From contig JBBRWD010000003.1 of NCBI GenBank assembly GCA_038249465.1, positions 102,355 through 166,354 of the forward strand: a DNA stretch of 64,000 nt, given 5' to 3'. The first letter of the stretch is position 1. Each line of letters begins with the position of its first letter. Below the pieces are notes generated by a model. The model did not search any database. It was not told the DNA's origin and was given only the letters and a program-made list of their open reading frames with translations. Made by a program: the position numbers and the translations under genes. This document shows positions 5,083-58,447 of the stretch, one piece after another. The stretch is from Limisphaerales bacterium (lineage in GTDB: Bacteria; Verrucomicrobiota; Verrucomicrobiia; Limisphaerales; JBBRWD01).

Positions 5083-5652
5083 CTACGGTTTGACCGCCTC
5101 GTAGGTGGCGCGAAACAGCGCCTGGTCCACCACCCAGACGTCCTCGGGATGCGCCACGGCACGGTCGCGAAAATTTTTAAGAACGAAGTCGCCCGGTTTG
5201 CCCGCCAGCGTTCCCCAGGTGGCTGCCACGGAAAACGGGTGTGGCACCGGCGCGGCCATGACCCCTTCCGCGTCGGGACGCGGCTGGTATTTTCGCCAGC
5301 CGCCTTCGGTCACGGCGCCGGTCGGCGTGTAGCGGGCTTCGAGGGTTTTCGCGGATTGCGGCCAAAGATCGCCCGCCTCGCCACGGCACAGGTAATCGCC
5401 GGCCTTTGCGGTGACGTCTCCTTCGAGCGTCGCGACGGTCTGTTCGCGCTCGATCAGCCGCGCCCAGATCGGCCGGTTCTTCTTCGCGTGAAACCAGGCG
5501 CGGGCGGAATCGAGTTCGTCAAGCAGGGCTTGGTTGGGTGAGATCGGGGCGTTCATTTTGGCAGGCTGAGGTGAATGATTGCATCCCGGGAGCAGGAACA
5601 GAGTCGCAATGGCACCGAGGCTCATCAGGCATTTTCTCCGGACGCTGAACAT
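5083..5652 (-). CDS. hypothetical lipoprotein
   Basis: 189-aa ORF with a signal peptide plus lipobox 'LFLLPGC'. No recognised domain. Confidence 0.5.
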   Translation of the reverse strand: MFSVRRKCLMSLGAIATLFLLPGCNHSPQPAKMNAPISPNQALLDELDSARAWFHAKKNRPIWARLIEREQTVATLEGDVTAKAGDYLCRGEAGDLWPQSAKTLEARYTPTGAVTEGGWRKYQPRPDAEGVMAAPVPHPFSVAATWGTLAGKPGDFVLKNFRDRAVAHPEDVWVVDQALFRATYEAVKP

Positions 5653-6096: not shown

Positions 6097-6136
6097 CCAC
6101 TTTTGATCGCACAGCCTCGTCCACTTTTGATCGCAC
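6097..6136. repeat. tandem pair of family-B TIR-like fragments 'ccacttttgatcgcac' (solo-TIR remnants) adjacent to MITE A1
   Basis: 'ccacttttgatcgcacagcctcgtccacttttgatcgcacc'. It matches the family-B terminus 'ccacttttgatcacac' with 1 mismatch, twice. Confidence 0.4.
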
Positions 6137-6329: not shown

Positions 6330-6404
6330 TCCTTGCGCGGAGATGGTCATTGCCCGTGTCTTGGGCATCCGCTAGTTGTTCGCGCGCGGTGTTTGTCCGC
6401 ATTC

Positions 6405-7091
6405 ATGAGCTTCCAATGGTATCTCTGGTCATCGGGTTGTGGGGACGCCGCGGAAAACATGGCGGCCGACGAAGCCCTGCTCGAAGGCACACGCGTCCAT
6501 GGCCGGCCGGTGCTGCGCGTTTATGGCTGGGCGGTTCCCGCCGCCACGTTCGGCTACTCGCAACACTATGCGGAGGTCGCCCGTGTCACGTTGCTGCGCC
6601 CGCTCATCCGCCGTCCCACCGGTGGCGGTCTTGTGCCGCACGACGCGGACTGGACCTACTGTCTGGCCATTCCGCCCGACAACGCGTGGAATGCGCTCAC
6701 TGCGGTGGAGAGTTACCGCCGCGTGCATGAATGGATTCGCCGGGCGTTGGCGCAGATGGGCGTCGAGACGGAACTCGCGCCGTGTTGTCGCCAGGATGCG
6801 CCCGGGCAATGCTTCGCCGGCGCGGAGAGATTCGATGTCCTCTGGCAAGGGCGGAAGATCGCGGGTGCCGCACAACGCCGCAATCGCAGCGGTCTGCTGA
6901 TTCAAGGCTCGGTGCAGCCGCCGCCGCTGCGTCTCTGCCGCGAGGATTGGGAGCAGGCGATGACTGAAACCGCGACGCGTGAATGGAGCGTGGCGTGGTC
7001 GCCGCTAAAACCGTCGGAGGCGTTTCGCGAAACCATCCGCCGGCTCTGCGAGGAGAAATACTCGCGGGACGCATTCAACCGGCGGCGGTGA
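6405..7091 (+). CDS. lipoate-protein ligase / octanoyltransferase family protein (BPL/LPL catalytic domain)
   Basis: Motif 'RRPTGGGLVPHD' resembles the LplA/LipM 'RRxTGGGAVxHD' signature. The start was chosen at the internal ATG (MSFQW...) because the upstream part of the long ORF overlaps a repeat element. Confidence 0.55.
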   Translation: MSFQWYLWSSGCGDAAENMAADEALLEGTRVHGRPVLRVYGWAVPAATFGYSQHYAEVARVTLLRPLIRRPTGGGLVPHDADWTYCLAIPPDNAWNALTAVESYRRVHEWIRRALAQMGVETELAPCCRQDAPGQCFAGAERFDVLWQGRKIAGAAQRRNRSGLLIQGSVQPPPLRLCREDWEQAMTETATREWSVAWSPLKPSEAFRETIRRLCEEKYSRDAFNRRR

Positions 7092-10014: not shown

Positions 10015-10378
10015 GGCTCCGGTTTGATGGCCAGAGGTGTCTTGACAGGCGCCGCGCGCTCCCTAAGTTTAGCTTTGGTCATTCCGTAAGTTACCAATGT
10101 TAAAGTGGGAAGTAAGCCGTGGACTGGGGAATGACGGCGCCCGAGGGTTGCCGCGCAGGTGGAACGCAACCGCAATGATCGCCCGGGCCTCGCGTCCTGC
10201 CTTCCCTTTCTGGCTCTGCCCTGCCAGGGAGCACCACAGGCCACCGCCCAGGCGAGCCGCTGATTCGACCGCACGCTACTGCCGCGATTGCCCAACCCTC
10301 GAGCCCACGCCGATCCACGACGGCGTTTCGATTTTTCCCGCCGAATCACCCCAAATGGATCACCGCAAGGAAGCAGCC

Positions 10379-13300
10379 ATGAAAAACCAACACCACCCAA
10401 GGACGGTCCTTCTTCTCATCCTCAGCCTGGCGATGCACCTCAGCTCCGGCCTGGCACGCGGACAGGTGTGCGCGGCCAATCTGACCAATCGCGCCGATGT
10501 GTTTCTGGCCACGCCGGGGAATGACTATAATGTGTATTTCGATGTCAACGGGATGAGTGCGGACTCCTTCCCCGCAGTCAACGCCGGCTGGGTGCGCGAT
10601 GCATTGTTTGGGGCGCACCATGCCTTCGTGACCACCAACGGCTTTCGCAATCCTTCGTTCAGCGCCAATCCCAACGACACCTGCATTTCGATGGCGGTGG
10701 GCTGTTTCGCTGATGCGCCGCTGGATCGCATCCGGCTTCAATCCGGTTGCATGGCGGGCCTGACCGAACCCTTCACGCGCTCGGTGGTGACGCACGAGTT
10801 GTTTCATCACGCCCAATACGCCTACATCAACTTCAATGACTGGCCCTCTTGGGGCACCTGGACCATCGAGGCGACACCCTCGGCCATGGAAGACCGCTCC
10901 TTTGCCGACGTGGATAACAACGGGGCGAACTCCCGCTACGTCGGTGACGTGAACTTCTTCCTTGGGACGCCGAACACGACCTTGATGAGTCGCAGCTATG
11001 ACGCTGCACTCTTTTGGAACTATCTGGCCGAGCGACTGGGCACAGTCACGACGGAACCCAACCGCGGCGTGGACGTCATCCGCGGCTTTTGGGAACGGGC
11101 GCGCGGCAACAGCCCGGACAGCGTTCGCTACGTGCGCGATACCATTCAGGCCCAGGCGCCGGGGCGTACGTTGGAGGATTTGTTCATTGACCTGGCCATC
11201 GCCGGGTTCACCCACAATCTGGATCGAAGTCGTTTGCCGGCCGACCAGCAGGCGCGGTATGCGTTCTTGGACGAATCGGCCACCGGCGGCGGCACCGCCT
11301 ACGGCGCCTCGGCGCGAACCACGGTGACCTCGCTCAATACCACGCTGAGCAGCAATGTCGTCCGCTGGGGTGCGCAGTACTTCGTCGCCAACGTCGGGGA
11401 TAAAGGCTGCCAGGCCGTGGGCGCGTGGGGCAAAGCCAGGAACAATCAGAACCTGGGCTGGGCGGTGGTGGGCGTGCGGAGCGGAAACAAAGTGACGGAG
11501 ATAGCCCGTGGACAAGGGAGTGTCTTCTACCGTTCGTTCATCGATAATCCGGTGGATCCCTTCGTCCAGTTGGCGCTGGTGGTGGTGGGCTTGAATGAAG
11601 CCGCTGATTTCGACTATGCCTTCGGTTTCGGCCAGATCGGAGCCACCATCCTGCTGCCCACCATGGACCGGATGGCGTTTGCCGGCCGCCGCGATGATCC
11701 CCGCCGGTTCCAGGTGCGCCTGCGGATTACTGGACCGTCGGTGCTGACCCCGGCGGGTTCTGCGCCGATTTCGATTCGCGGCCTGGACCCGTCGATCTTC
11801 CGGATTGTCCTGCGAAGCACCAGCACCGGGGCGACTTATCCCGTCACCGTGGTCAACTCGGCCTACGTCAGCGGCGAATACTGGCTGGTCGCATCGGCAC
11901 CGGTCATCTCCAACGCCGCCGATGGCGACCTGTATGACCTGGAAGTCTGCGTGTGCACCACCGAACGCGACTGCGCCTCGCAGCTTGTCAATCCGCGGTC
12001 TGTTCTCTACGGCGACATCCAATACAACCAGATGCTGGTGCTGGATCGGTCCTACAGCATGCATTACCCGGAGCCGGTCGAAAGTTCGAAGATCGAGGCG
12101 GCGAGAAATGCGGCGCGAATGTTCGCCGATACCGCGGCGGACAACGATCGGCTCGGTTTGGTGACGTTCACCGGCGACAACACTGAGTGCAACCTCGACG
12201 CCACGGTCAACCGCCCGTTGCGGCTCATGAACGATGGCGGCATCGACAACCGCGGGCCGCTCATCAGCGCCATCAGCGGCGTGGTGGAGGATGGTTGGAC
12301 CTCCATCGGTGACGGACTGAAACTAGGCCGCGACGCTCTCCTGACAGCCTCGCCGCCGCTGGGCTTGCGCGACGTCAACGGGCTGCTGCTGCTAAGTGAT
12401 GGACTGGAGAACGAGGGAGATTTCTGGGCGGCGGCGAACACGGCGTGCCCAACGCCATTCCCGCCGCCGGTGCGCGATTCGTTTGACCCCGTCTCCGGTG
12501 TCGCTCGTAACATCAAGGTGGATACCATCGCCCTCGGATCCAATGCCGATCAGGAATTGCTGCAACGGATCGCGACTTTTACCCGGGGAACCTTCTATGC
12601 CGTCAGCGCCGATCCGCCCACCGGCGGAGGCGCGGCGCGCGCGGGCATCGCTCCGGCCAGCCCAGCCAGCGAGCCGCCCTCGATGAGCAGCCTCCAAGTG
12701 CCCAACCGGCTGGCCCACGTCCACCGCAGTGCCCAGGAGGAATTGCACGGGCACGATCGCCTGTTTTTCCGCGCCTTTGGATTGAACGCTGGCGCCAACA
12801 ACTTCGTGGTGCCGGTGACCGAACCCAGCGAAGGCGGCGTGCAGGAAGCCAGCTTCACCTTCAACTGGCACCTCCAATCCGTGACCGTAAAGGTGCATCT
12901 CTTCGATCCAGCCGGCGACGAAATCACCAGTTCCACGCCGGGCTGGAGTGTGTTTCAGGATGACACCCACCAAGTCTATCAGTTCAACGGCACCCTGCCG
13001 GCGGGCGACTACGCCGTGACCGCCGAGGCCAGCGGGCCGGTGCAATTGCTGGCCATGCTTTCCGGCTTGTTGATCCGAGGCGTGGATTTTGATCTCTACC
13101 TCTCGCAGCCGCGCGGCCTGGCACCCAATGCCGAATGTCCTTTCCGCGACCGCTATGATTATTTGCGCGGCCTGCCGGTGGATATCTTCGCCACGGTCAC
13201 CGACTACAAAGGCGGCATTGGTGGCCTGAGCATGGAGGCACGGATTGAGAATCCCGACGGTTCCATCAACCGGCTCAGCCTCTACGACGACGGCCTGCAC

Positions 13301-14686
13301 GACAATGGCATCGAGGGCGACGGTATTTACGGCAATCGCTACACCCGCACTCCCTTCTCCAGCCAGGGCGGCCAGCCGGATTTCCCCGGCCTTCCGGCTG
13401 GCCAGTGGGGAAGCTACACCGTCCAGGTCTTCGCCCAGGGCAAGGGCCATTCGGGCGATCCGTTTGAGCGCTTCGCCACGCGATTCTTTCAGGTCTATGA
13501 ATTCGTGGAAAATCCCCAGTTTAAAATATGCGATCCCGACACGGATGATGACGGCCTCCCGGACCGCTGGGAGGATTTGTATGGCTTGAACAAGCTGGAC
13601 CCCGCAGATGCGGCGCTCGACAACGACGTTGACGGGCTGAGCAACAAGGAAGAGTTCCAGCATGGCACGCTGCCGTTCAATCCGGACACCGACGGCGGGG
13701 GCGAATCCGATGGCTCGGAAGTCGCCGCCAGTCGCGATCCGCTCTACGACAAGGACGACCTCCTGCCTGCCATCATGGACTACGGCGTGGTCACCCACGT
13801 ATTCCACGTTCCGGTTCACGAGCCTGAACCCGAAACTCTGATCCTCCATTACCCAGTCAACACCGCCTATCGCTTCATGGAGGTCTGGAGATTTGACTGG
13901 GGCACCCTGACCTGGCTGCTCCACGAGCGGGTCGATCTCACCGTGGACCACTCCGGCATCTACTACGACCGCGGACTGGTCAACGACGTCGTTTACTTCT
14001 ACGCCTTGGTGGCGGAGGGCCACAGCGGCGCGCGAACCGCCGCCACCGCGTGGTTTGGCGGTGTGCCCAAAGCCGATCCGATTCCCCCGGACGGTGCCAT
14101 GATGATTAACATGGGCGACCACTTTACCGCGTCACCCGTGGTGAAGGTTCAGTTCGGGGTAAGTCCCGATACCAAGGAGGTCATGTTGTCTGAAGATCCC
14201 GCCTTTGCCGGGGCAATCTACCAGCCCTTCCAAGCCGAGCTTCCGTTCGCGCTCACATCTGGTCCCGGCCCGGTGACCGCGACGATTTACGCCAAACTTC
14301 GCGATGCCGCCCTCAATGAATCCATCGCCATCCATGATTCAATCCTACTCAACATGGCGGATGACTCCGACAACGATTCGCTGTCCGACATCTGGGAACG
14401 CCGGTTTTTTGGCGATCTTCGCTTCGGTCAGAATGACAATCCGGATCACGATGGTTTCTCCAACCGGGACGAGTTCCGCAATGGCACCGACCCGACCGAT
14501 CCGCGCAGCCCGCGGCGCGCCGGGGTAACCTCCATCCGCCGGGACGGCGGTCAGACGGTCATCGAATACGAAGGGACCCTCCGAAGTTCTGAACACGTCG
14601 ATGGGCCATATCTGGCCGAGCCGGGAGCCACCTCGCCTTATCGATTCACGCCCACGGATCGCAGCCGGTTCTTCCTGGCTGAATAA
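10379..14686 (+). CDS. very large secreted zinc metalloprotease-like protein with vWA domain and thrombospondin-type-3-like Ca-binding repeats
   Basis: Signal peptide 'MKNQHHPRTVLLLILSLAMHLSSGLA'. HExxH motif 'VVTHELFHHAQY'. vWA MIDAS-like 'MLVLDRSYSM'. Repeated 'DPDTDDDGLPDRWED'/'DNDVDGLSNKEE' segments. The C-terminal module ends in 'SRFFLAE'. Confidence 0.65.
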   Translation: MKNQHHPRTVLLLILSLAMHLSSGLARGQVCAANLTNRADVFLATPGNDYNVYFDVNGMSADSFPAVNAGWVRDALFGAHHAFVTTNGFRNPSFSANPNDTCISMAVGCFADAPLDRIRLQSGCMAGLTEPFTRSVVTHELFHHAQYAYINFNDWPSWGTWTIEATPSAMEDRSFADVDNNGANSRYVGDVNFFLGTPNTTLMSRSYDAALFWNYLAERLGTVTTEPNRGVDVIRGFWERARGNSPDSVRYVRDTIQAQAPGRTLEDLFIDLAIAGFTHNLDRSRLPADQQARYAFLDESATGGGTAYGASARTTVTSLNTTLSSNVVRWGAQYFVANVGDKGCQAVGAWGKARNNQNLGWAVVGVRSGNKVTEIARGQGSVFYRSFIDNPVDPFVQLALVVVGLNEAADFDYAFGFGQIGATILLPTMDRMAFAGRRDDPRRFQVRLRITGPSVLTPAGSAPISIRGLDPSIFRIVLRSTSTGATYPVTVVNSAYVSGEYWLVASAPVISNAADGDLYDLEVCVCTTERDCASQLVNPRSVLYGDIQYNQMLVLDRSYSMHYPEPVESSKIEAARNAARMFADTAADNDRLGLVTFTGDNTECNLDATVNRPLRLMNDGGIDNRGPLISAISGVVEDGWTSIGDGLKLGRDALLTASPPLGLRDVNGLLLLSDGLENEGDFWAAANTACPTPFPPPVRDSFDPVSGVARNIKVDTIALGSNADQELLQRIATFTRGTFYAVSADPPTGGGAARAGIAPASPASEPPSMSSLQVPNRLAHVHRSAQEELHGHDRLFFRAFGLNAGANNFVVPVTEPSEGGVQEASFTFNWHLQSVTVKVHLFDPAGDEITSSTPGWSVFQDDTHQVYQFNGTLPAGDYAVTAEASGPVQLLAMLSGLLIRGVDFDLYLSQPRGLAPNAECPFRDRYDYLRGLPVDIFATVTDYKGGIGGLSMEARIENPDGSINRLSLYDDGLHDNGIEGDGIYGNRYTRTPFSSQGGQPDFPGLPAGQWGSYTVQVFAQGKGHSGDPFERFATRFFQVYEFVENPQFKICDPDTDDDGLPDRWEDLYGLNKLDPADAALDNDVDGLSNKEEFQHGTLPFNPDTDGGGESDGSEVAASRDPLYDKDDLLPAIMDYGVVTHVFHVPVHEPEPETLILHYPVNTAYRFMEVWRFDWGTLTWLLHERVDLTVDHSGIYYDRGLVNDVVYFYALVAEGHSGARTAATAWFGGVPKADPIPPDGAMMINMGDHFTASPVVKVQFGVSPDTKEVMLSEDPAFAGAIYQPFQAELPFALTSGPGPVTATIYAKLRDAALNESIAIHDSILLNMADDSDNDSLSDIWERRFFGDLRFGQNDNPDHDGFSNRDEFRNGTDPTDPRSPRRAGVTSIRRDGGQTVIEYEGTLRSSEHVDGPYLAEPGATSPYRFTPTDRSRFFLAE

Positions 14687-14689
14687 CCC

Positions 14690-14863
14690 GGGTGTGATTA
14701 AAAGCGGGTGAGGCCGGCACGCCCGGCGAGGTCGGGCGCGTCACTCCGTGCGCTCCGTCGGGAATGCTGGCACCGCTCCGGCGGCGCGCGCGGAGTGGCT
14801 CGCCCTACTTCCCAGGGTTTTCCGCCGGTTCGGGGTTAACCTCACCCACTTTTGATCACACCC
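14690..14863. mobile_element. MITE-like element, family B, copy 1 (174 bp) with 24-bp TIRs and 9-bp target-site duplication
   Basis: Left TIR 'gggtgtgattaaaagcgggtgagg' and right TIR 'cctcacccacttttgatcacaccc' (22/24 inverse match). The element is flanked by the direct repeat 'gaataaccc' at 14681-14689 and 14864-14872. The left TSD contains the TAA stop codon of the metalloprotease gene. Confidence 0.7.
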
Positions 14864-15068
14864 GAATAACCCGGGACTTCCACCACTGCGAATAGTCGCG
14901 GCTGGCAAAGACTGGACGCCCATCTGCTGACAGCCTCAACGAGGCCCACGAAGATCGGCGGAAATGATTCCCATCGTTCTCAGCACCGAGGCGCTGACGG
15001 TTCCAGCGCCGGATATCCGGGAAGATTCCAGCGCGTGGCGTTTCCCGAGGCACCTTCCACCCGCGCGG

Positions 15069-18000
15069 TCACGGAATGAGGCGCAGCCGGTAAAAGCGTG
15101 TGTGTTGTGGGCCGGCCGGCAGGATGTCGTCGAAGTGTTCTTCAGTCGCGGTCGCGACGCGCGGGAGGCCGGCGGCGGTGAGTGGCCGGAAGACGTATTC
15201 GAGTCCGTTGGCGTACTGGATTTCGTAGCGGCGGCCTGGCACCGCCTTCCACGAAAGGCGCACCGTGTTGCCGGGCAGCATGGCGGCAGTCAGGCGCAGC
15301 GCCGAGGTGGGATCGCGCGGGTCGGTATCGGTGAGGTACTCGCCGAAGTTGGACACGCTGTCGTCATCTGCATCCTTGTCGCAATCGTCTGTCTCCGGGT
15401 TGAGTTGATGCAGTGTTTCCCAGGCGTCGGGCATGCCGTCACCGTCGGAATCAATTTCGGCGCCAGTGACGATGGTCACTTGGTCCGGCGTGCCGTCGGC
15501 ATTCAGGTCGAGTTCGGAGCGGACCTGCTTCACGCGCGGCCAGTCTTGCAGCACGACGCAATGCACCGCGCCGTTCGGCACGTTGAACGGGCCAAAGACG
15601 GCGCACGTGTTGTTCGTCGTGCGAGCATCCACGGCGTCCACGCGGAGGTAATGTTGCGTCGGCTTGCCGCTGTCATTGCGGTAATCGACGGCCCGCTGGC
15701 TCTTGAGGGCGCGGAATTCCTGGGTCCGGTTGCTCACGGCGTCGAGGCCGAGCCATTGGAACGTGGCGCAGGCGCCGTTGCTGATGGCGAAGCCGATCCT
15801 TGGAGTGAAGTTGCTGATGGCGGCCTGCGGCGTGAAGCGAAAGGAGCTGAGTTGATTGGAAATCGCAGTGAGGCTGATGCGATTGCTGTGGCCGGGCGTG
15901 CTGCCGGCCATTTCCAATTGCAGCATGGTGCCGCCCGCCGCGACGTGGAAGACGTTCGCGTTGCTGCCGCGCATGTGAATGTCGATGGCCGGAATGCCGT
16001 TCGAGATAGGCAGCAGAATGGGGATGCTCCGCGTGCGGTTTGTGGGAGTTCCCAGGATGGGAATGGCCTTCAGGCCGGGCAGGTTGTTCACGAAGGTGCC
16101 GTCTTGGCGCCAGCCCCATTCCCTGCCGGCCGGCGCGGTGAAATGCGCGTCGGCGTCGCCAGCCACCACGACGAGAAAGGTGCCCAGCGCGAGGGCAAAA
16201 TCGTAGAGGCCGGGCGCGGTGCGGGTGTCGGTGTATAGCCGGCGTGGCACGGTGAACAGCGCGGTGCCGGTCCAACCGCTGCCCGGGAAAATGTATTCGT
16301 TGGCACTGTGATCGATGTCGATGAATTGATTGGTGACGCACCAGTCGTCCGCGGCGGCGCCGATGGCGCACGGGCTGTTGTTGTCGTAAATCCAGATGCG
16401 CGTGATGTTGGGGTCGCCGCCATAGTTTCCCTCCACGCGGTAGGGCGACACGCAATGGCCGCCCTCAAAACCCTGCACCATGCAGACGGCCTGCGCGGTG
16501 GTGCCCGCGCGCAATTCGGGCAGACGCGCGACGGGATCGCCGCCGAAGTTGGGTGAGAACACATCGACATCGAGCTGCGAGATCAGGTGGTTCAAATACT
16601 CCGCGCTGGTCTGCGCGCCGTGGTTCATGCGGATGCGCGCCCAGATGTCCTTGGGGATGGGAGGGCGGGTGTACCGGCCGCCGGTGTTGCCGGTATCGAA
16701 CTCGCCGGGTGCCCCGGGGTTGTCAATGCCATTGGCGAAGAGCGCCTCGGGATCATAGGTCTGCGGGATCTCCAGCAGATTGAACAGTTCCAACGCGGTG
16801 CCGGAGAAGCCCACGCAACTGCCGGTGCTCTTGTCGATGACGATTTTATGCACCGGCCACCACAGGCCCCAATACAGAGGGTCCGGGATGTGGGCGCCGC
16901 AATCACCAATCGGGTCCACGCAGATGTAGGCGCTGTAACCGTAGCCGGCGAGGAACTCGTTGAGGAGGGCGTCGTGATCCTCGTTATCAAAACTGAACCC
17001 ATGAATGGTCGGATAGGGCGGACGGCGCAGCGTGAAGGTGCCGACGGTGCTGTATTCAATCTGTCCGGGACGGAACCACGCGTCGCGCGCGACCCATTGC
17101 CAGGGCGATTGGAACGAAGGCACGAAGGGGCCGCTGGTGTGTTGGCGCACGAAGTCGGGAACAAACGGCGCCTGCACGCGTACCGTGGTGGCATTGACCC
17201 GCTCGACGTTTGCAGCGGGAAGCAACGTCCATGCACCGGGGCTGGTCGGGAAGGTTCCAGTGATGGGTGACAGGGAGTATTCCATCTCCGCGTGCAGGTT
17301 CGTGCCGGTGAGCGTGACCCATTCGCCAAGTCCGCCAATGCCGCCCTGGCGCACGGCGATGCCGACCATTGGATTCGTGGGCGACGCGCCGGTGATCCCG
17401 GACGCGACCAGCAGGGGTCGTTGCACGAAGAAATCCACGTTGGCGAATTGGAAGGTCCCGCTGGCGCCGGTGGGGAGGCCGGCAAAGATGACGCGATTGG
17501 TGTAGATGAATTGCGGCTGTATTCCGGCGGCACTCACGCGGGGCAACGTGTAGCGGCCGAACGCCTCCAGTTCCGCCTGCGCGAAAATGAACGTCGTCCC
17601 AGCCGGCACCGGCTCGTCAAAACTGAACCGCCCAAAGCTGTCGGTGAACTTGCTGTAAGCCACGCTGTCGGCGATGAGTGACACGCGATAGTTGGGCAGC
17701 GGTGTGGAGGTGTTGGTGAGGCCGGAGAAGACCCGTCCGCTCCAGCGCACCCGTGGCAGGTTTGCGCTGCCTTCGCCGTAGGACATCGTGAGCCAGGTCG
17801 CGGGCGACGCCTCGAAGCCCGCCTCGGGGATGAAGGTTTGGTCGCCGAACGAAGTGAAATTGATCTGTCCCAGCGCCACTCCATCGAACTCGTTGAAGTT
17901 TCCCAGCAGCGTTCGGGCCACGCGAAACTCCGTGCAGATCGCGGTGGAAATTTCACCGCCGCAGAACCGCTGGCCCACCTGATAGAGACTGCGCGGCGTG

Positions 18001-20099
18001 CAGGGCTGGGGCAGGCCGATGCCGCCGGGCGTCTGGCAAATGTAGTAACCGCCGGAGCCGTCACCATTGAGCCAGGCCGAGCGACTGCTGCCGTCCATCG
18101 GCGCCCGCAGTTCCGCCTGCGGATATTCCGCCAGCGCCGGCCTGGCGTTCGTCGTGTCGAGGTAGAGGCTCAACCACGAGTTGGTGATGTTCCAGCCGCC
18201 AGGAAGCGCAAGGCCCGCCGCCACCGAGACAAAGAGATCGTTGTCCGTGTGAACGAAATGCGCCGTGACATCCACCATTTCGGGCTGATCCGGGTAACGC
18301 ACCACGAGCTGCTCGGCACCAAGATACTCGGTCGCAATGTTAATGTTGCCATCCGCCGTGGGAGGAAAAGCCGCGCGGGGCACGACGAGGTCACGCGGAG
18401 CCATGCCGAAGATTTGCTCGGTGACGCTGCCCACGGCTCCCACCAGACCTGAGACCACCTCGACGCGTCCGCCGCGCGGAATGGCCGCCGCCAGGCCCGG
18501 CTCGCCGCGCACTTCCCGGTACATGCCCTCGCGGATTTCGGTCGCGCTCCGCGCCACGGACCACACGCGCACTTCGTCGAGGTTTCCCAGGAGCACGGCG
18601 ACGGGGGTAAATGTTTGGAAAGAAAACCCGCCGTGGCCCAGCAGCAGTGGGCGCAGCTTGCCCGCGCCGTTATGAGCGAGCGTGCGACCGCCCGCGAACT
18701 CGCCGTTGAGGTAGAAGCGCGCAATCGCCCCGTCGTAGCTCACGGCGACGTGCGTCCACTTCCGCGTGGACACTGGAGTCGCGACTTCGGCGAAATTTGT
18801 CCCGCGATAGAACCGCAGCCGCGGCGAGAAAACCAACCGATAGGAATCGGGGGCTTGCGAAGCAAAATCGGAGCTGTGCGAGACAATGGTCTCGAAGCGG
18901 TTTGCGTCGTGCCGGTACACCCACGCCTCGACGGTCATCGAGACCGACTGATCCCATTCGGGTCGCGCCTCGTAGCTGACCTGGCTGAGGCTTCCGTCAT
19001 AAAACGTGCTGCGCAGCGGCGGCGTGCCCGCCGGTCCGGGAAAGGCGGGAATGCTGAAGCTGGCATTCACTCCATTCACCCGGCCATTAGGGTTCGTGGC
19101 CACGAGCCGAAAGTGATTGGTCTGTCCCTGAAACTGGCCAGTGATTTCCGCGTTCATGACCACCGAGGTCGAGGCGTTGCCCACATTCACCGGTGGCGTC
19201 AGGTTTCCGTAGTTGGTGGTCGCACCCCACTCGAACCACGCCGTGGTGTCCAGTCCGAGGGCCGTGACCGCGCCATTGAGCCGCGCTGAAGTCAGCCCCT
19301 GCTGGCTGGCCTGGGTCGTGGAAACGAGCGGGCCGATCTGTACTTCAGACACCATCCGCGTCGGACCTCCCACCAATGTTCCCAAGTTGTCACCCGCGTT
19401 GTTTGGCGCGGCGTCAGCCGTGGCAATACCCGAAGGCTCGTCAAATCGCCAGTAAGCCAGCAGCCCCGTCTCGTTCGTCGCCAGGCGGCGGTTCATCGCG
19501 CTGGCGATGGCATTCGAGGAGAGCGCCACGTTCCAGATGCTCACCTCGTCCATTGAGCCGCGATAAAAATTGTTTTCGTAACGGCCCAGCCGCACCTCCT
19601 GCGCGGTGGTCGGGGCGCCGGCGGTGCCCGTCCAGGCGCGGCTGTCGCGCAACACGCCGTTCACATACAGCTTGCCGCCCGTGGCATCCACGGTGAAGGC
19701 GACATGCGACAAGCCAAAGATGGAAAGGAAGCCACCATTGAGACCGCGCCCGCCATCCCAGACCTGGGAACCATTGGTTCGGAAATACCAGGCGTGCAGC
19801 GTGCCCTCGTAGAGATAGATCTGGTAGCCATTGAAAGAGTTGGCGGCGTATTTGTTGATCAGGCCGCGATCCGGACCGTATTCGTCGTTCCGGATCCAGC
19901 CCATGACCGTCAGCGGAAAGGCGTTCAGCGCGGCACTGTTCGAGATGCTCACGTAGTCATTCAACCCGTCGAAGGACAGCGCGGTGCCCGCACCGGTTTG
20001 CGCGCGGAGGACAGGACCCGTCACCAGCCAGCCCGTGAGTCCGAGAATTGCGACGGTGCCAGCCCGGCGCACGCGTCGAGAGCAGATGCCATTGTTCAT
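15069..20099 (-). CDS. giant secreted LamG/concanavalin-A-like lectin domain protein with TSP3-like repeats
   Basis: The start was chosen at MNNGICSRR, just before a predicted signal peptide. LamG-like 'LDEVRVWSVA'/'MDEVSIWNVAL' motifs occur twice. Asp-rich repeats 'DSDGDGMPDAWE' are present. The C-terminal module ends in 'TRFYRLRLIP'. Confidence 0.6.
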   Translation of the reverse strand: MNNGICSRRVRRAGTVAILGLTGWLVTGPVLRAQTGAGTALSFDGLNDYVSISNSAALNAFPLTVMGWIRNDEYGPDRGLINKYAANSFNGYQIYLYEGTLHAWYFRTNGSQVWDGGRGLNGGFLSIFGLSHVAFTVDATGGKLYVNGVLRDSRAWTGTAGAPTTAQEVRLGRYENNFYRGSMDEVSIWNVALSSNAIASAMNRRLATNETGLLAYWRFDEPSGIATADAAPNNAGDNLGTLVGGPTRMVSEVQIGPLVSTTQASQQGLTSARLNGAVTALGLDTTAWFEWGATTNYGNLTPPVNVGNASTSVVMNAEITGQFQGQTNHFRLVATNPNGRVNGVNASFSIPAFPGPAGTPPLRSTFYDGSLSQVSYEARPEWDQSVSMTVEAWVYRHDANRFETIVSHSSDFASQAPDSYRLVFSPRLRFYRGTNFAEVATPVSTRKWTHVAVSYDGAIARFYLNGEFAGGRTLAHNGAGKLRPLLLGHGGFSFQTFTPVAVLLGNLDEVRVWSVARSATEIREGMYREVRGEPGLAAAIPRGGRVEVVSGLVGAVGSVTEQIFGMAPRDLVVPRAAFPPTADGNINIATEYLGAEQLVVRYPDQPEMVDVTAHFVHTDNDLFVSVAAGLALPGGWNITNSWLSLYLDTTNARPALAEYPQAELRAPMDGSSRSAWLNGDGSGGYYICQTPGGIGLPQPCTPRSLYQVGQRFCGGEISTAICTEFRVARTLLGNFNEFDGVALGQINFTSFGDQTFIPEAGFEASPATWLTMSYGEGSANLPRVRWSGRVFSGLTNTSTPLPNYRVSLIADSVAYSKFTDSFGRFSFDEPVPAGTTFIFAQAELEAFGRYTLPRVSAAGIQPQFIYTNRVIFAGLPTGASGTFQFANVDFFVQRPLLVASGITGASPTNPMVGIAVRQGGIGGLGEWVTLTGTNLHAEMEYSLSPITGTFPTSPGAWTLLPAANVERVNATTVRVQAPFVPDFVRQHTSGPFVPSFQSPWQWVARDAWFRPGQIEYSTVGTFTLRRPPYPTIHGFSFDNEDHDALLNEFLAGYGYSAYICVDPIGDCGAHIPDPLYWGLWWPVHKIVIDKSTGSCVGFSGTALELFNLLEIPQTYDPEALFANGIDNPGAPGEFDTGNTGGRYTRPPIPKDIWARIRMNHGAQTSAEYLNHLISQLDVDVFSPNFGGDPVARLPELRAGTTAQAVCMVQGFEGGHCVSPYRVEGNYGGDPNITRIWIYDNNSPCAIGAAADDWCVTNQFIDIDHSANEYIFPGSGWTGTALFTVPRRLYTDTRTAPGLYDFALALGTFLVVVAGDADAHFTAPAGREWGWRQDGTFVNNLPGLKAIPILGTPTNRTRSIPILLPISNGIPAIDIHMRGSNANVFHVAAGGTMLQLEMAGSTPGHSNRISLTAISNQLSSFRFTPQAAISNFTPRIGFAISNGACATFQWLGLDAVSNRTQEFRALKSQRAVDYRNDSGKPTQHYLRVDAVDARTTNNTCAVFGPFNVPNGAVHCVVLQDWPRVKQVRSELDLNADGTPDQVTIVTGAEIDSDGDGMPDAWETLHQLNPETDDCDKDADDDSVSNFGEYLTDTDPRDPTSALRLTAAMLPGNTVRLSWKAVPGRRYEIQYANGLEYVFRPLTAAGLPRVATATEEHFDDILPAGPQHTRFYRLRLIP

Positions 20100-20233
20100 A
20101 GTGTTCTGGAATTGAGTTCGCCGGATTGCGTCTTGGATGTTGCGGGGGCGGTGGAGTGTTGCAGTTACATTATGTTCAGAATGTTGCACACTTATGCTTG
20201 TGCGAGCCGGTGTCAAGCACCGTGGACGAATGG

Positions 20234-20391
20234 GGGCGCATCCGCGCACTGCCCCCGGCGCGCGGCCTTGAGGCCGCTTCCGCGTTCGATGGGTATTGGC
20301 GAAACATTGCCGGACGGTCTCGAACGATGAAGCGACGTGAACGTCGCGCTCCAACCCGGTTTGCCTTCGGGGGCAGTGTCGAGATGCGCCC
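20234..20391. mobile_element. MITE-like palindromic element, family A, copy 3
   Basis: 'gggcgcatccgcgcactgcccccggcgcgcggccttgaggccgcttccgcgttcgatggg...cgggggcagtgtcgagatgcgccc'. It lies between the 5' end of the giant LamG gene and the CBM9-like gene. Confidence 0.6.
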
Positions 20392-20647
20392 GACGAATGG
20401 TCCGCACTGAAACGACGCCGGTCTTCCCATCCGCGTTCTCGATCGTCCGCAAGTCTGGGCCATGAACGCGGAGGAGTGGGCGGGGCAAGGCGTGCGGTCA
20501 ATCCTCGTCAGGCATCATCTCAGTGAGGGCGGGTGGCGGGTCAGCGATGTCCCGTGGACCGCACACGGCGACGAGCACAACCGATTTGCCGTCAGGTTGC
20601 AGGGCGGCGGAGGAAAGACCACGCTGCATCCATCCGTCCGCCCCGGT

Positions 20648-39298: not shown

Positions 39299-39471
39299 GG
39301 GTGTGATTAAAAGTGGGAAAGGTTAACCAGGAACCGGCGGAAAATCCCGGGTGGTAGGGCGCGTCGCTCCGCGTGCGCCGCCGGAGCGGTGCCAGCAATC
39401 CCAACGGCGCGCACGGAGTGACGCGCCCTGCCTCGCCGGGCGTGCCGACCTCACCCGCTCGTGATCACACC
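39299..39471. mobile_element. MITE-like element, family B, copy 2 (inverted orientation relative to copy 1)
   Basis: It starts 'gggtgtgattaaaagtgggaaaggttaaccaggaaccggcggaaaatccc' (reverse complement of the copy-1 right half) and ends 'cctcacccgctcgtgatcacacc'. Confidence 0.55.
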
Positions 39472-43621: not shown

Positions 43622-45160
43622 GGTGAAAACATGACGCCCCGCTCTTTCCATTACCCACAGGATTCATGACCAAAGCGTTGCCAGGCGGCGGTGATCGCCC
43701 GCAGTTGTTGCAGGCCGCGCCAGACCACGGTCGGCCCGGGTTCTCCATCGCGGCGCCGGCCCAGGAAGCCGCCCAATTGCGCGAGCCAGCGCCCCGCCTG
43801 CCGCAGCGTCGGCGGCTGGCGCGGCGGCAGGGCCCGTTCTTCCATGTAACACGTCAAGGCACGCCATTCGTCGGCGCTCAGCCAGTCGCTGGCCAGTCCG
43901 TCCGGGGTCGCGCGCCCCGCCTGGCACAACGCCAGCACCCGCCAGGCGACGATCAAATCCACCCGCACCACCCGCTGCAAACGCGCGGCCGTCTCCAGTT
44001 GCCGCTGCTCGACCTGGCAGCCGCTCTTGAGCACCTTGTGCAGCACTTCGATCGGCCAGCGCCGCGCATACCAGCCGACTTTTTCCACCGCCGCGGCGAG
44101 GCTCTCCACCGGTTGCGTGGTCAGGAGCCGCCAGCAAATCGGCGTGGCCCCTTTGGGCGGACGGGTCTCGCGCGCTTCCACCGCCCACAACGTCAGCGGC
44201 GGCTGGTCTTCCTTCAAGCAGGGCGGGCGCAAGGTGACGGGCGCAAAACGGATCGACAGCGTGGCCAGCCGCGCGGGCTGGCCCCCGTTGCGGGGCACTT
44301 TGATTTTGAGTCGCCCGCCCACGCGCTGGGCCGCCAGGAAATTCCACAGATATTGCTGCGGATGGGCGAGCTGCCGGTCATGCTGCGCGCGCACCAGCAG
44401 GTGGACGCGCGGCCCCTCCGCCGGGGCCAGGGCCGCCACGAACAGGTCGTAGAGATCGCCCTCGCGGTCGGCCACGTTGACCAGCGTGGTGTCGGGACAC
44501 TGCGCGGCCAGCGCCTGGCAGGCGGTTAAACTCTCCAGCCACTTCTGGCTTTCCTTCTGGGCGCGCGGCGTGCGGTTGCGCGCGGCGGAAGAGCGGCCAA
44601 ATTCCTTCTGCGAGCGGACCCAGCTTTGGGCGTGGAGCAGGCCCAGCGGTTGGCCCGCGGGCGTGACCGCCAGGGTCGAATGCAGGAACAGGCCGATGGT
44701 TTTGTCGCGATTGTTGCCGATGGGTCCCAGGCCCTGGGTTTGCGGATGCGTCGAGTAGTTGAGGCTGGTGGTGTCCTGCAGGCACAGCACGATGGGCTGG
44801 GTGGCGGCACGGCGGACGGTGGCCTGGACGTGGGTGGCCAGCAGATCTTCCGGCGCGATGCCGTCGTGGTCGAAGAAGCGGTAGGCGGCCTTGGTCCGGG
44901 CCCAGGAGCCGCAGGCCTGGGGGATGGAGGCGGTGGGCTGGAGGGCGAAGTCAGTGGCCATGGTGATCAAGCGCGCGACCAGACGCTGGTCGGGCAGCGG
45001 CGCGTGGGCGAATTCGTGCGCGGCCCAGTCGGCGCCGGCGGGTTGGATCGAGGGTGGCGAGGATGCAGTGCGTTTGAGCATCCCGCCATAAACTACATAA
45101 GTCGTTGTTGTACTAGACTAATGTTGTGGGTAATAGAAAGGACTCGTCACTGCTTTCACC
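43622..45160. mobile_element. IS4-family insertion sequence (~1.54 kb) with ~40-bp imperfect terminal inverted repeats
   Basis: The left end 'ggtgaaaacatgacgccccgctctttccattacccacagga' is an imperfect inverse of the right end 'tgttgtgggtaatagaaaggactcgtcactgctttcacc'. The transposase stop overlaps the left IR, as in IS50. The outer ~20 bp of the right IR overlap a copy of repeat family C, so the exact right boundary (45143 vs 45160) is uncertain. No clear 9-bp TSD was seen. Confidence 0.55.
43651..45081 (-). CDS. IS4-family (IS50/Tn5-like) DDE transposase
   Basis: 'VNVADREGDLYDLF' (DREAD-like) and the IS4 signature 'YARRWPIEVLHKVLKSGC' (Y-2-R-3-E-6-K). 476 aa. Confidence 0.85.
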   Translation of the reverse strand: MLKRTASSPPSIQPAGADWAAHEFAHAPLPDQRLVARLITMATDFALQPTASIPQACGSWARTKAAYRFFDHDGIAPEDLLATHVQATVRRAATQPIVLCLQDTTSLNYSTHPQTQGLGPIGNNRDKTIGLFLHSTLAVTPAGQPLGLLHAQSWVRSQKEFGRSSAARNRTPRAQKESQKWLESLTACQALAAQCPDTTLVNVADREGDLYDLFVAALAPAEGPRVHLLVRAQHDRQLAHPQQYLWNFLAAQRVGGRLKIKVPRNGGQPARLATLSIRFAPVTLRPPCLKEDQPPLTLWAVEARETRPPKGATPICWRLLTTQPVESLAAAVEKVGWYARRWPIEVLHKVLKSGCQVEQRQLETAARLQRVVRVDLIVAWRVLALCQAGRATPDGLASDWLSADEWRALTCYMEERALPPRQPPTLRQAGRWLAQLGGFLGRRRDGEPGPTVVWRGLQQLRAITAAWQRFGHESCG

Positions 45161-45282
45161 GCTTGGGCGACTTGTCGCCAAAGCAGAGCCGCGTTCAGCG
45201 GTTCGGAGCCAATTCACGCGCCTGCCCGTTCGACGGCGACAAGTCGCCTGCCGAAAGCGGCGAGAACTCGCCGCACTCCAAA
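45139..45282. mobile_element. MITE-like element, family C, copy 2 (degenerate, abutting or overlapping IS right end)
   Basis: 'ggactcgtcactgctttcaccgcttgggcgacttgtcgcc...ggcgacaagtcgcctgccgaaagcggcgagaactcgccgcactccaaag' parallels copy 1 ('ggcgacttgtcgcc', 'gcggtgacaagtcaccgcactccaaag'). Confidence 0.45.
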
Positions 45283-58287: not shown

Positions 58288-58447
58288 GGGTGTGATTAAC
58301 AGCGGGTGAGGCCGGCACGCCAGGCGAGGTGGGCCGCGTCGCTCCGTACGCGCCGTTGGGAATGCTGGCACCGCTCCGGCGGAGCGACGCGCCCCACCTC
58401 CCACGGTTTTCCGCCGGTTCGTGGTTAACCTCGCCCGCTTACTACCC
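58288..58447. mobile_element. MITE-like element, family B, copy 3 (right TIR degraded)
   Basis: It starts 'gggtgtgattaacagcgggtgaggccggcacgccaggcgaggtgggccgcgtcgctccg...ttttccgccggttcgtggttaacctcgcccgctta', which is ~85% identical to copy 1 across the shared length. The right terminus lacks the 'ttttgatcacaccc' end. Confidence 0.5.

What the first reader, a model, noticed from the sequence alone, without database searches (positions are those of the whole stretch)
14681..14872. MITE-like element (family B) inserted exactly at the stop codon of the giant metalloprotease gene, with intact 9-bp target-site duplication
A 174-bp element with 24-bp terminal inverted repeats ('gggtgtgattaaaagcgggtgagg' / 'cctcacccacttttgatcacaccc') is flanked by a perfect direct repeat 'gaataaccc'. 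The upstream copy supplies the gene's TAA stop. An intact TSD implies a relatively recent transposition in trans; no transposase lies inside the element. Two further copies occur in the window: 39299..39471 in inverted orientation and 58288..58447 with a decayed right end. Solo-TIR-like fragments occur at 6097..6136. The 9-bp TSD length equals that of IS4-family elements, and an IS4 member is present at 43622..45160, although the TIR sequences differ.
Basis: seen in the sequence. Interest (0 to 1): 0.5.

Follow-up and report, generated by a model that had tools for sequence, protein, structure and literature searches.

The report
Small hitch-hiking transposon behind a gene
This is an ordinary non-coding miniature transposon (MITE) that landed just after a gene's stop codon; its ends match those of an ISKra4-family insertion sequence common in Verrucomicrobiota, not the IS4 element nearby.

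Summary
Window 14690..14863 is a 174-bp non-coding element. It has 24-bp terminal inverted repeats (22/24 complementary) and a perfect 9-bp duplication, GAATAACCC, on each side. The left duplicate contains the TAA stop of a 1435-aa VWA-domain gene. Copies at 39299..39471 (87% identical, reversed) and 58288..~58440 (84%, right end lost) are real.

The MITE reading is supported. The proposed IS4 link is not. The same 24-bp end, GGGTGTGATYAAAAGYGGGTGAGG, occurs in at least 117 DNA stretches from about 50 species-level genomes, nearly all Verrucomicrobiota. There it bounds 49 small elements of 121-487 bp with at least 27 unrelated interiors. It also bounds 1412-1433-bp insertion sequences that encode an ISKra4-family (Mutator-like) transposase. 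Of 51 end pairs, 30 have 9-bp flanks matching at 8 or 9 positions, and every flank sequence is different. Several full-length elements also have perfect 9-bp duplications.

Orthologous genes (74-75% identical) end at the same residue and carry no element. No cognate transposase lies in the window, and I could not search the rest of the source genome. An intact duplication is only weak evidence that the insertion is recent.

This is a new member of a known kind, of modest interest.

The parts
14690..14863 (+). MITE copy 1, 174 bp, non-coding; the whole element folds as one long imperfect hairpin
   Evidence: (RNA MFE -124 kcal/mol, z = -9.6)
14681..14689 (.). Left copy of the 9-bp target-site duplication GAATAACCC; contains the last codon GAA and the TAA stop of the VWA gene
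14864..14872 (.). Right copy of the 9-bp target-site duplication GAATAACCC
14690..14713 (+). Left TIR GGGTGTGATTAAAAGCGGGTGAGG; 24/24 identical to the right TIR of the full-length IS in L144
14840..14863 (-). Right TIR (reverse complement GGGTGTGATCAAAAGTGGGTGAGG). With the adjacent TTAA, 27/28 (96%) identical to the right end of the IS in L151, and 26/28 (93%) to those in L144 and L046
39299..39471 (-). MITE copy 2, 87% identical to copy 1, both TIRs mutated (3 mismatches each), no target-site duplication (2/9); lies between a DHO_dh-like gene and an FG-GAP gene
58288..58447 (+). MITE copy 3, 84% identical over element positions 1-162 (to 58440), 9-bp internal deletion, right TIR lost
6097..6136 (+). 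Two exact copies of the TIR tip CCACTTTTGATCGCAC, 24 bp apart. Probably the remnant of an old right end; no partner end and no MITE interior nearby
10379..14686 (+). Gene whose stop codon lies in the duplication: a 1435-aa VWA/TSP3-domain protein (start as called in public assemblies; the longest ORF starts at 10097)
15069..20501 (-). Convergent neighbour (LamG-domain protein, 1810 aa); the MITE lies in the 382-bp gap between the two gene ends

Best explanation
The element is a miniature inverted-repeat transposable element. It is a non-coding passenger that carries only the 24-bp terminal inverted repeats recognised by the transposase of an ISKra4-family (prokaryotic Mutator-like, p-MULT4) insertion sequence of Verrucomicrobiota. 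A transposase made elsewhere binds both ends, excises or copies the element, and inserts it with a 9-bp staggered cut. Repair of that cut duplicates the target GAATAACCC. For this transposase superfamily the published intermediate is a circle. Here the target happened to be the last codon, the stop codon and the next 3 bp of a VWA-domain gene, in the gap between two convergent genes. The protein was left unchanged and the insertion was tolerated.

Shown: the anatomy of the element; the generality of the 9-bp duplication; the same TIRs on full-length ISKra4-type ISs; and absence of the element from orthologous gene ends.

Inferred: that this copy was mobilised in trans; the circular intermediate; and that the source genome has, or once had, the cognate IS.

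The long GC-rich hairpin may also affect transcript ends of the two convergent genes. That is untested.
For: Anatomy: 174 bp, 24-bp TIRs, a perfect 9-bp flanking repeat, and no ORF.

Family: the exact-pattern scan found at least 117 stretches in about 50 species-level genomes, nearly all Verrucomicrobiota. There are 49 small TIR pairs of 121-487 bp falling into at least 27 unrelated interior groups.

Boundaries: conservation starts exactly at the first G and ends at base 24.

Duplication: 30 of 51 pairs have at least 8/9 identical 9-bp flanks, each of a different sequence.

Autonomous partners: 1412-1433-bp elements with the same TIRs occur in L114, L025, L144, L145, L146, L151 and L152. Perfect 9-bp duplications flank those in L114, L025 (if its left end lacks one G), L144, L146 and L152.

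Transposase: the fused L114 protein scores 206.3 bits against a cut-off of 205 for NF033572, ISKra4 family transposase. Transposase fragments abut the TIR at contig ends in 10 further loci.

Published family features match: IRs of 18-39 bp ending in C, direct repeats of 8 or 9 bp, and circular intermediates (PMC3942029).

Empty state: orthologues at 74-75% identity end at the same residue with no element downstream.

Insertion sites of the family avoid long ORFs: median 125 codons against 416 at random positions.
Against: No ISKra4-type transposase is present in the 64-kb window. The rest of the source genome could not be searched, so trans-mobilisation in this host is inferred.

Only the TIRs (24-28 bp) are shared with the ISs. 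The interior is unrelated, so this is not a simple deletion derivative.

The window's interior subfamily was found nowhere else.

Copies 2 and 3 lack duplications and have damaged ends, so the family may be extinct in this genome.

No near-identical strain with an empty site was available. The 'empty' comparisons come from 74-75% orthologues with different downstream genes.

The NCBIfam score clears its cut-off only marginally, and only after joining two ORFs by hand.
Confidence: 0.9

Rival explanations
1. The element is a MITE mobilised by an IS4-family transposase such as the resident IS at about 43644..45140.
For: IS4-family elements commonly make 9-bp duplications (general knowledge). An intact IS4/Tn5-like transposase is in the window (NF033590, E = 7e-127).
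Against: The IS4 element's inverted repeats, CTTTCCATTACCCACAGGATT / AATGTTGTGGGTAATAGAAAG, share nothing with GGGTGTGATTAAAAG.... The MITE ends are 24/24 identical to the ends of ISKra4-type ISs, which also make 9-bp duplications.
Confidence: 0.02
2. The element is primarily a functional hairpin, either a transcription terminator or RNA-stabilising stem between convergent genes, or a structured small RNA gene. On this view its repeat character is secondary.
For: The whole element folds into one stem of -124 kcal/mol, z = -9.6. Interiors of 34 of 49 family members are strongly self-complementary although unrelated in sequence. A few stem pairs change on both sides between sub-lineages. The element lies directly after a stop codon, between convergent genes.
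Against: There is no Rfam match. No intrinsic-terminator-like site and no T-run follow the stem. The interior sequence is not conserved across genomes, whereas the 24-bp ends are. Target duplications and shared ends with transposase-bearing ISs show that it spreads by transposition. In the window's three copies the covariation term is unfavourable (+6.2).
Confidence: 0.05
3. The element is a REP/BIME-type extragenic palindrome spread by a RAYT (IS200/IS605-like Y1) transposase.
For: It is palindromic, intergenic and repeated. A Y1 transposase gene lies next to one of the related ISs (L152).
Against: REPs are 20-40 bp, carry GTAG or CGTC heads and make no target duplication (PMC3733652 abstract, and general knowledge). 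This element is 174 bp, starts with GGGTGTG and is flanked by a 9-bp duplication. The Y1 gene in L152 lies outside the IS.
Confidence: 0.01

Closest known systems
ISKra4 family insertion sequences (p-MULT4 prokaryotic Mutator-like transposases; groups ISAzba1, ISMich2, ISKra4; Guerillot et al. 2014, PMC3942029)
   Same: The full-length elements carrying the MITE's ends are about 1.43 kb. They have 24-bp IRs ending in C and 9-bp direct repeats. Their transposase matches NF033572. Many copies split the transposase into two ORFs joined by a -1 shift, as described for the ISMich2 group.
   Different: The window element has no transposase and shares only 24-28 bp at each end. The 2014 paper lists seven phyla for this family, and Verrucomicrobia is not among them. 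I did not test by phylogeny which of the three groups these ISs belong to.
Bacterial MITEs that form long hairpins (Correia/NEMIS of Neisseria, ERIC, RUP, cyanobacterial Nezha; from my own knowledge, not tested here)
   Same: Size of 100-300 bp, TIRs, target duplication, no coding capacity, intergenic location, whole-length fold-back, and mobilisation in trans by an IS transposase.
   Different: The ends and the partner IS family differ. Here one nearly invariant 24-bp TIR is combined with at least 27 unrelated interiors across about 50 species.
IS4/Tn5-like element in the same window (about 43644..45140)
   Same: A DDE transposon expected to make 9-bp duplications.
   Different: Its inverted repeats are unrelated. 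It is not the partner.

Membership tests
MITE (miniature inverted-repeat transposable element) | Small size (under about 600 bp) and no coding capacity | tested here: met
   174 bp; no ORF over 60 aa overlaps it other than the end of the flanking gene
MITE (miniature inverted-repeat transposable element) | Terminal inverted repeats | tested here: met
   24 bp, 22/24 complementary; both arms equal the family consensus
MITE (miniature inverted-repeat transposable element) | Target-site duplication of fixed length whose sequence differs between copies | tested here: met
   Perfect 9 bp at copy 1. 30 of 51 pairs in other genomes have at least 8/9, all of different sequence. Window copies 2 and 3 have none.
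MITE (miniature inverted-repeat transposable element) | Multiple copies in a genome | tested here: met
   3 copies in 64 kb. The genome-wide count was not obtainable.
MITE (miniature inverted-repeat transposable element) | An autonomous element with the same TIRs exists | tested here: met
   L114, L025, L144, L145, L146, L151 and L152: 1412-1433 bp, same ends, transposase inside. All are in other genomes.
MITE (miniature inverted-repeat transposable element) | The cognate transposase is present in the same genome, so the element can still move | not testable with these tools
   None in the window.
ISKra4 family (for the partner IS) | Transposase matches the family model above its curated cut-off | tested here: met
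   Fused L114 protein: 206.3 bits against 205 for NF033572. This is marginal. The C-terminal ORF alone scores 181.7.
ISKra4 family (for the partner IS) | IRs of 18-39 bp with a terminal C, and direct repeats of 8 or 9 bp (PMC3942029) | tested here: met
   24-bp IR, 5'-GGG...CCC-3', 9-bp duplications
ISKra4 family (for the partner IS) | DDE catalytic triad in the positions of Mutator-like transposases | not tested
   Candidate motifs (AEVDGT, VGDGADW, GMIESGH) are visible in the sequence but were not aligned to reference proteins.
ISMich2 group of the ISKra4 family | Transposase in two ORFs restored by a -1 frameshift | tested here: met
   A CGT-A9 run with a -1 relation between the ORFs is present in L114, L046 and L145-L155. 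Identical two-ORF copies sit at 3 or more places in genomes. Single-ORF relatives have A7 or A10 at the same spot. Phylogenetic placement in this group was not tested.
IS4 family derivative | TIRs matching an IS4-family element | tested here: not met
   The resident IS4 element's IRs are unrelated.
REP/BIME | 20-40-bp palindrome with a GTAG or CGTC head and no target duplication | tested here: not met
   174 bp, GGGTGTG head, 9-bp duplication

The most novel reading that the evidence does not exclude
The 24-bp end defines a phylum-wide MITE superfamily in Verrucomicrobiota that has not been described in the papers I could search. One nearly invariant transposase-binding end has been joined again and again to unrelated interiors, at least 27 of them, and most of these are long fold-back hairpins. 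That would mean either that new MITEs are born repeatedly by a mechanism that makes palindromes (for example strand switching at an IS end), or that a hairpin is needed for mobilisation by this Mutator-like transposase. The partner IS would control its transposase through slippage on a conserved A9 run.
Probability: 0.3. Interest if true: 0.45.

Novelty: new member of a known kind. Interest (0 to 1): 0.3.

Why it matters
For this window it settles an annotation question. The 174 bp after the VWA gene is transposon debris, not a regulatory RNA or part of the gene. The gene product is unchanged. The nearby IS4 element is not responsible.

More broadly, the 24-bp end GGGTGTGATYAAAAGYGGGTGAGG is a simple marker for a large family of ISs and MITEs in Verrucomicrobiota metagenome-assembled genomes. 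Many hits lie at contig ends, and the public short-read assembly of this very locus stops inside the element. Masking or recognising the family would therefore help explain assembly breaks in these genomes.

It also extends MITE formation to the Mutator-like ISKra4 family in a phylum not listed in the family's founding paper. None of this changes how such elements are understood to work.

Tried and rejected
- Rfam scan of the whole window: no family matched.
- Promoter and terminator consensus scan of 14400-15200: nothing found.
- Two metagenome scans for the window's own interior subfamily. TTTTCCGCCGGTTCNNGGTTAACCT gave 0 hits. GCGGGTGAGGYCGGCACGCC gave 21 hits, but none extended more than 7 bp beyond the 20-bp query pattern or had a TIR next to it, so I treated them as chance.
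- Viral contig scan with the TIR: 0 hits.
- megablast of the window against the 117 genome loci: no shared sequence, so the source genome is not among them.
- Looking up the source accession through the protein cluster: no accession returned.
- DNA for the closest orthologue (P0002, 79%): not available.
- Search for a target-site consensus in 30 reconstructed empty sites: none found.
- Similarity of the MITE interior to the subterminal parts of the ISs: none beyond 24-28 bp.
- L104, a TIR pair 1.7 kb apart around hipA, was considered as a cargo-carrying element. I rejected this because it has no duplication and one end has 3 mismatches.
- My early idea of an IS1-family link (GGnnnTG ends, 8-9-bp duplications) was dropped once the ISKra4-type ISs were found.
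- Literature searches for ISKra4 with MITE, and for MITEs or ISKra4 in Verrucomicrobia: no description of this family.
Full report
**1. What is in the sequence**

Reading 14500-15050 shows ...TTCCTGGCT GAATAACCC | GGGTGTGATTAAAAGCGGGTGAGG ... CCTCACCCACTTTTGATCACACCC | GAATAACCC GGGACT. The element is 14690..14863, 174 bp. Its 24-bp arms differ at 2 positions. The 9-mer GAATAACCC flanks it perfectly on both sides.

The TAA at 14684-14686 ends ORF 10097..14686 and lies inside the left 9-mer. The repeat can be read as 12 bp, because the element begins with GGG and so does the downstream flank. The family logo described in section 3 puts the element boundary at the first G, so the duplication is 9 bp.

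The TIR pattern with up to 3 mismatches occurs 4 times in the window, against 0 in 100 shuffles. blastn and an alignment confirm a copy at 39299..39471 (87%, opposite orientation). They also confirm a copy at 58288..58440 (84%) that has a 9-bp internal deletion and has lost its right end. The 'solo TIR' fragments are two exact 16-mers, CCACTTTTGATCGCAC, at 6097 and 6121. No ORF over 60 aa lies in the element.

The whole element folds as one imperfect hairpin with an RNA MFE of -124 kcal/mol and z = -9.6. Rfam finds nothing in the window.

**2. Context**

Pfam gives the upstream gene only VWA and TSP3 domains. It has one HELFH motif, so the label 'metalloprotease' is unverified. Public assemblies call it as 1435 aa, which puts the start at 10379.

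The large ORF on the other strand, 15069..20501, is a LamG-domain protein. The element therefore lies in the gap between two convergent genes. Copies 2 and 3 are also intergenic.

**3. The family**

These come from about 50 assemblies, nearly all labelled Verrucomicrobiota: Limisphaerales/Pedosphaera, Terrimicrobiaceae/Chthoniobacter, Opitutales and others. Many hits lie at contig ends.

Only the ends are shared with the window element. The interiors do not match. Pairing plus- and minus-strand ends gave 51 pairs in the genome loci. Re-run with the window's two complete copies included, it gave 49 small elements of 121-487 bp. These elements, together with window copy 3, fall into at least 27 groups with unrelated interiors. 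The window's three copies form their own group at 82-87% identity.

In a logo of 171 ends, the positions not used for selection are informative. The first G is 92% conserved, and positions 22-24 are 91%, 87% and 71% conserved. The bases just outside, on either side, are at background.

**4. The duplication is real and general**

With the boundaries fixed that way, 30 of 51 pairs have 9-bp flanks identical at 8 or 9 positions. Most of these are perfect, and every one has a different sequence.

No target consensus appears in 30 reconstructed empty sites. The sites do avoid long reading frames. The median longest stop-free frame across the site is 125 codons, against 416 at random positions in the same loci.

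**5. The autonomous partner**

Three pairs were 1.4-1.7 kb apart.
- L114 (Opitutales MAG, 1432 bp, perfect duplication GTGGGAATC) holds ORFs of 120 and 334 aa.
- L025 (Chthoniobacter MAG, 1412 bp, duplication CCAATGTCC if the left end lacks one G) holds a frameshifted homologue.
- The third pair, L104, surrounds a broken hipA gene and has no duplication. I read it as two separate ends.

NCBIfam assigns the L114 and L025 proteins to the ISKra4 family. Joining the two L114 ORFs by a -1 shift gives a 440-aa protein that scores 206.3 bits against the curated cut-off of 205. tblastn finds transposase fragments next to the TIR at contig ends in ten more loci, and nothing in the window.

A protein search gives 1848 relatives at E <= 1e-30. 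They fall into two length classes, about 440 aa and about 332-338 aa, mostly on contigs about as long as the IS itself.

Fetching four of them added complete 1431-1433-bp ISs with the same or slightly diverged ends:
- L144: perfect duplication AGGATAGGC.
- L146: perfect duplication ACGGGTGCC.
- L152: perfect duplication TTCGGCAGG.
- L145: duplication matching at 8/9.
- L151: no duplication.

The right TIR of L144 is 24/24 identical to the left TIR of the window element. Beyond 24-28 bp the MITE and the ISs share nothing. The MITE is therefore not a simple internal deletion of these ISs.

**6. Comparison with the literature**

Guerillot et al. 2014 (PMC3942029) define this family as prokaryotic Mutator-like transposases (p-MULT4) with three groups: ISAzba1, ISMich2 and ISKra4. 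They report IRs of 18-39 bp ending in C, direct repeats of 8 or 9 bp, and circular intermediates in related families. In the ISMich2 group the transposase is in two ORFs restored by a -1 frameshift. All of this fits.

In L114, L046 and L145-L155 the two ORFs meet at a conserved CGT-A9-CGCTGA run in a -1 relation. Identical two-ORF copies occupy at least three different places in genomes, so they are active rather than dead. Single-ORF relatives have A7 or A10 at the same spot. That pattern is compatible with either ribosomal frameshifting or transcriptional slippage.

The 2014 paper does not list Verrucomicrobia among the host phyla. My searches found no paper describing MITEs of this family or in this phylum.

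**7. The IS4 idea**

The resident IS (transposase 43651..45081, NF033590, E = 7e-127) has inverted repeats CTTTCCATTACCCACAGGATT / AATGTTGTGGGTAATAGAAAG. These are unrelated to the MITE ends. The shared 9-bp duplication length is a coincidence of two families.

**8. Empty sites and age**

The gene's own protein (P0001) also sits on a short-read contig from run SRR19962012. That contig carries the same junction and stops 33 bp past the stop codon, inside the MITE.

Orthologues at 74-75% identity (L119, L120/L121, L122) end at the same FFL[A/T][D/E]-stop and have no TIR downstream. The insertion is therefore lineage-specific and did not alter the protein. The genes downstream differ in those contigs, so they are not true empty sites.

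The three window copies are 82-87% alike, two of them are damaged, and no transposase is in the window. At that divergence a perfect 9+9 bp would survive by chance roughly one time in three (my estimate). 'Recent' is therefore not established.

**9. The hairpin**

Interiors of 34 of 49 family members are far more self-complementary than shuffles, with a median z of -4.5. A 12-member subfamily shows six stem pairs changed on both sides between two lineages.

The window's three copies give an unfavourable covariation term, and no terminator-like site follows the stem. I treat the fold-back as a family trait of unknown cause. An effect on transcript ends is possible but untested.

**10. Verdict**

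The element is a MITE of an ISKra4-family (Mutator-like) insertion sequence that is widespread in Verrucomicrobiota. The IS4 link is wrong. It is a new member of a known kind, useful mainly for annotation and for understanding assembly breaks in these genomes.

Noticed in passing
window 6097-6112 and 6121-6136: Two exact copies of the TIR tip CCACTTTTGATCGCAC lie 24 bp apart in the divergent gap between a PGDYG-domain gene (5083-5652, -) and a lipoyl-ligase-like gene (6333-7091, +). There is no partner end and no MITE interior. Whether this is a remnant end or something else is unresolved.
   Followed up: partly
L114 1131-1148; L046 about 237; L145-L155 (for example L145 2966): The partner IS has a conserved CGT-A9-CGCTGA run where a 97-120-aa ORF and a 334-335-aa ORF meet in a -1 relation. 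Identical two-ORF copies sit at 3 or more places in genomes. Single-ORF relatives have A7 (L144) or A10 (L151) at the same spot. This suggests programmed frameshifting or transcriptional slippage.
   Followed up: partly
window about 43644-45140: An apparently intact IS4/Tn5-like insertion sequence: 476-aa transposase on the minus strand and 21-nt inverted repeats at 86% complementarity. It is unrelated to the MITE. A perfect 14-nt inverted repeat, GGCGACTTGTCGCC, lies just beside it at 45166-45248.
   Followed up: partly
L104 104-1825: A pair of the same TIRs 1.7 kb apart encloses a frameshifted hipA toxin gene, with no target duplication. It is probably two separate ends rather than a cargo-carrying transposon.
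   Followed up: partly
loci L018, L031, L038, L046, L053, L088, L099, L109, L113, L115: Contigs carrying this Verrucomicrobiota-type TIR are labelled Chitinophaga pinensis, uncultured Bifidobacterium, Akkermansia muciniphila or Ktedonobacteraceae MAGs. The labels may be wrong, the contigs mis-binned, or the element transferred between phyla.
   Followed up: no
L118 4721-4754 (equivalent to window 14686-14719): The public short-read assembly of the same locus stops 33 bp after the stop codon, inside the MITE. Many other TIR hits also lie at contig ends. The family appears to break metagenome assemblies.
   Followed up: partly
window 10097-14686: The gene called a 'giant metalloprotease' shows only VWA and bacterial TSP3 domains in Pfam, plus one HELFH motif at residue 233 of the long ORF. 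Its function is not established.
   Followed up: partly
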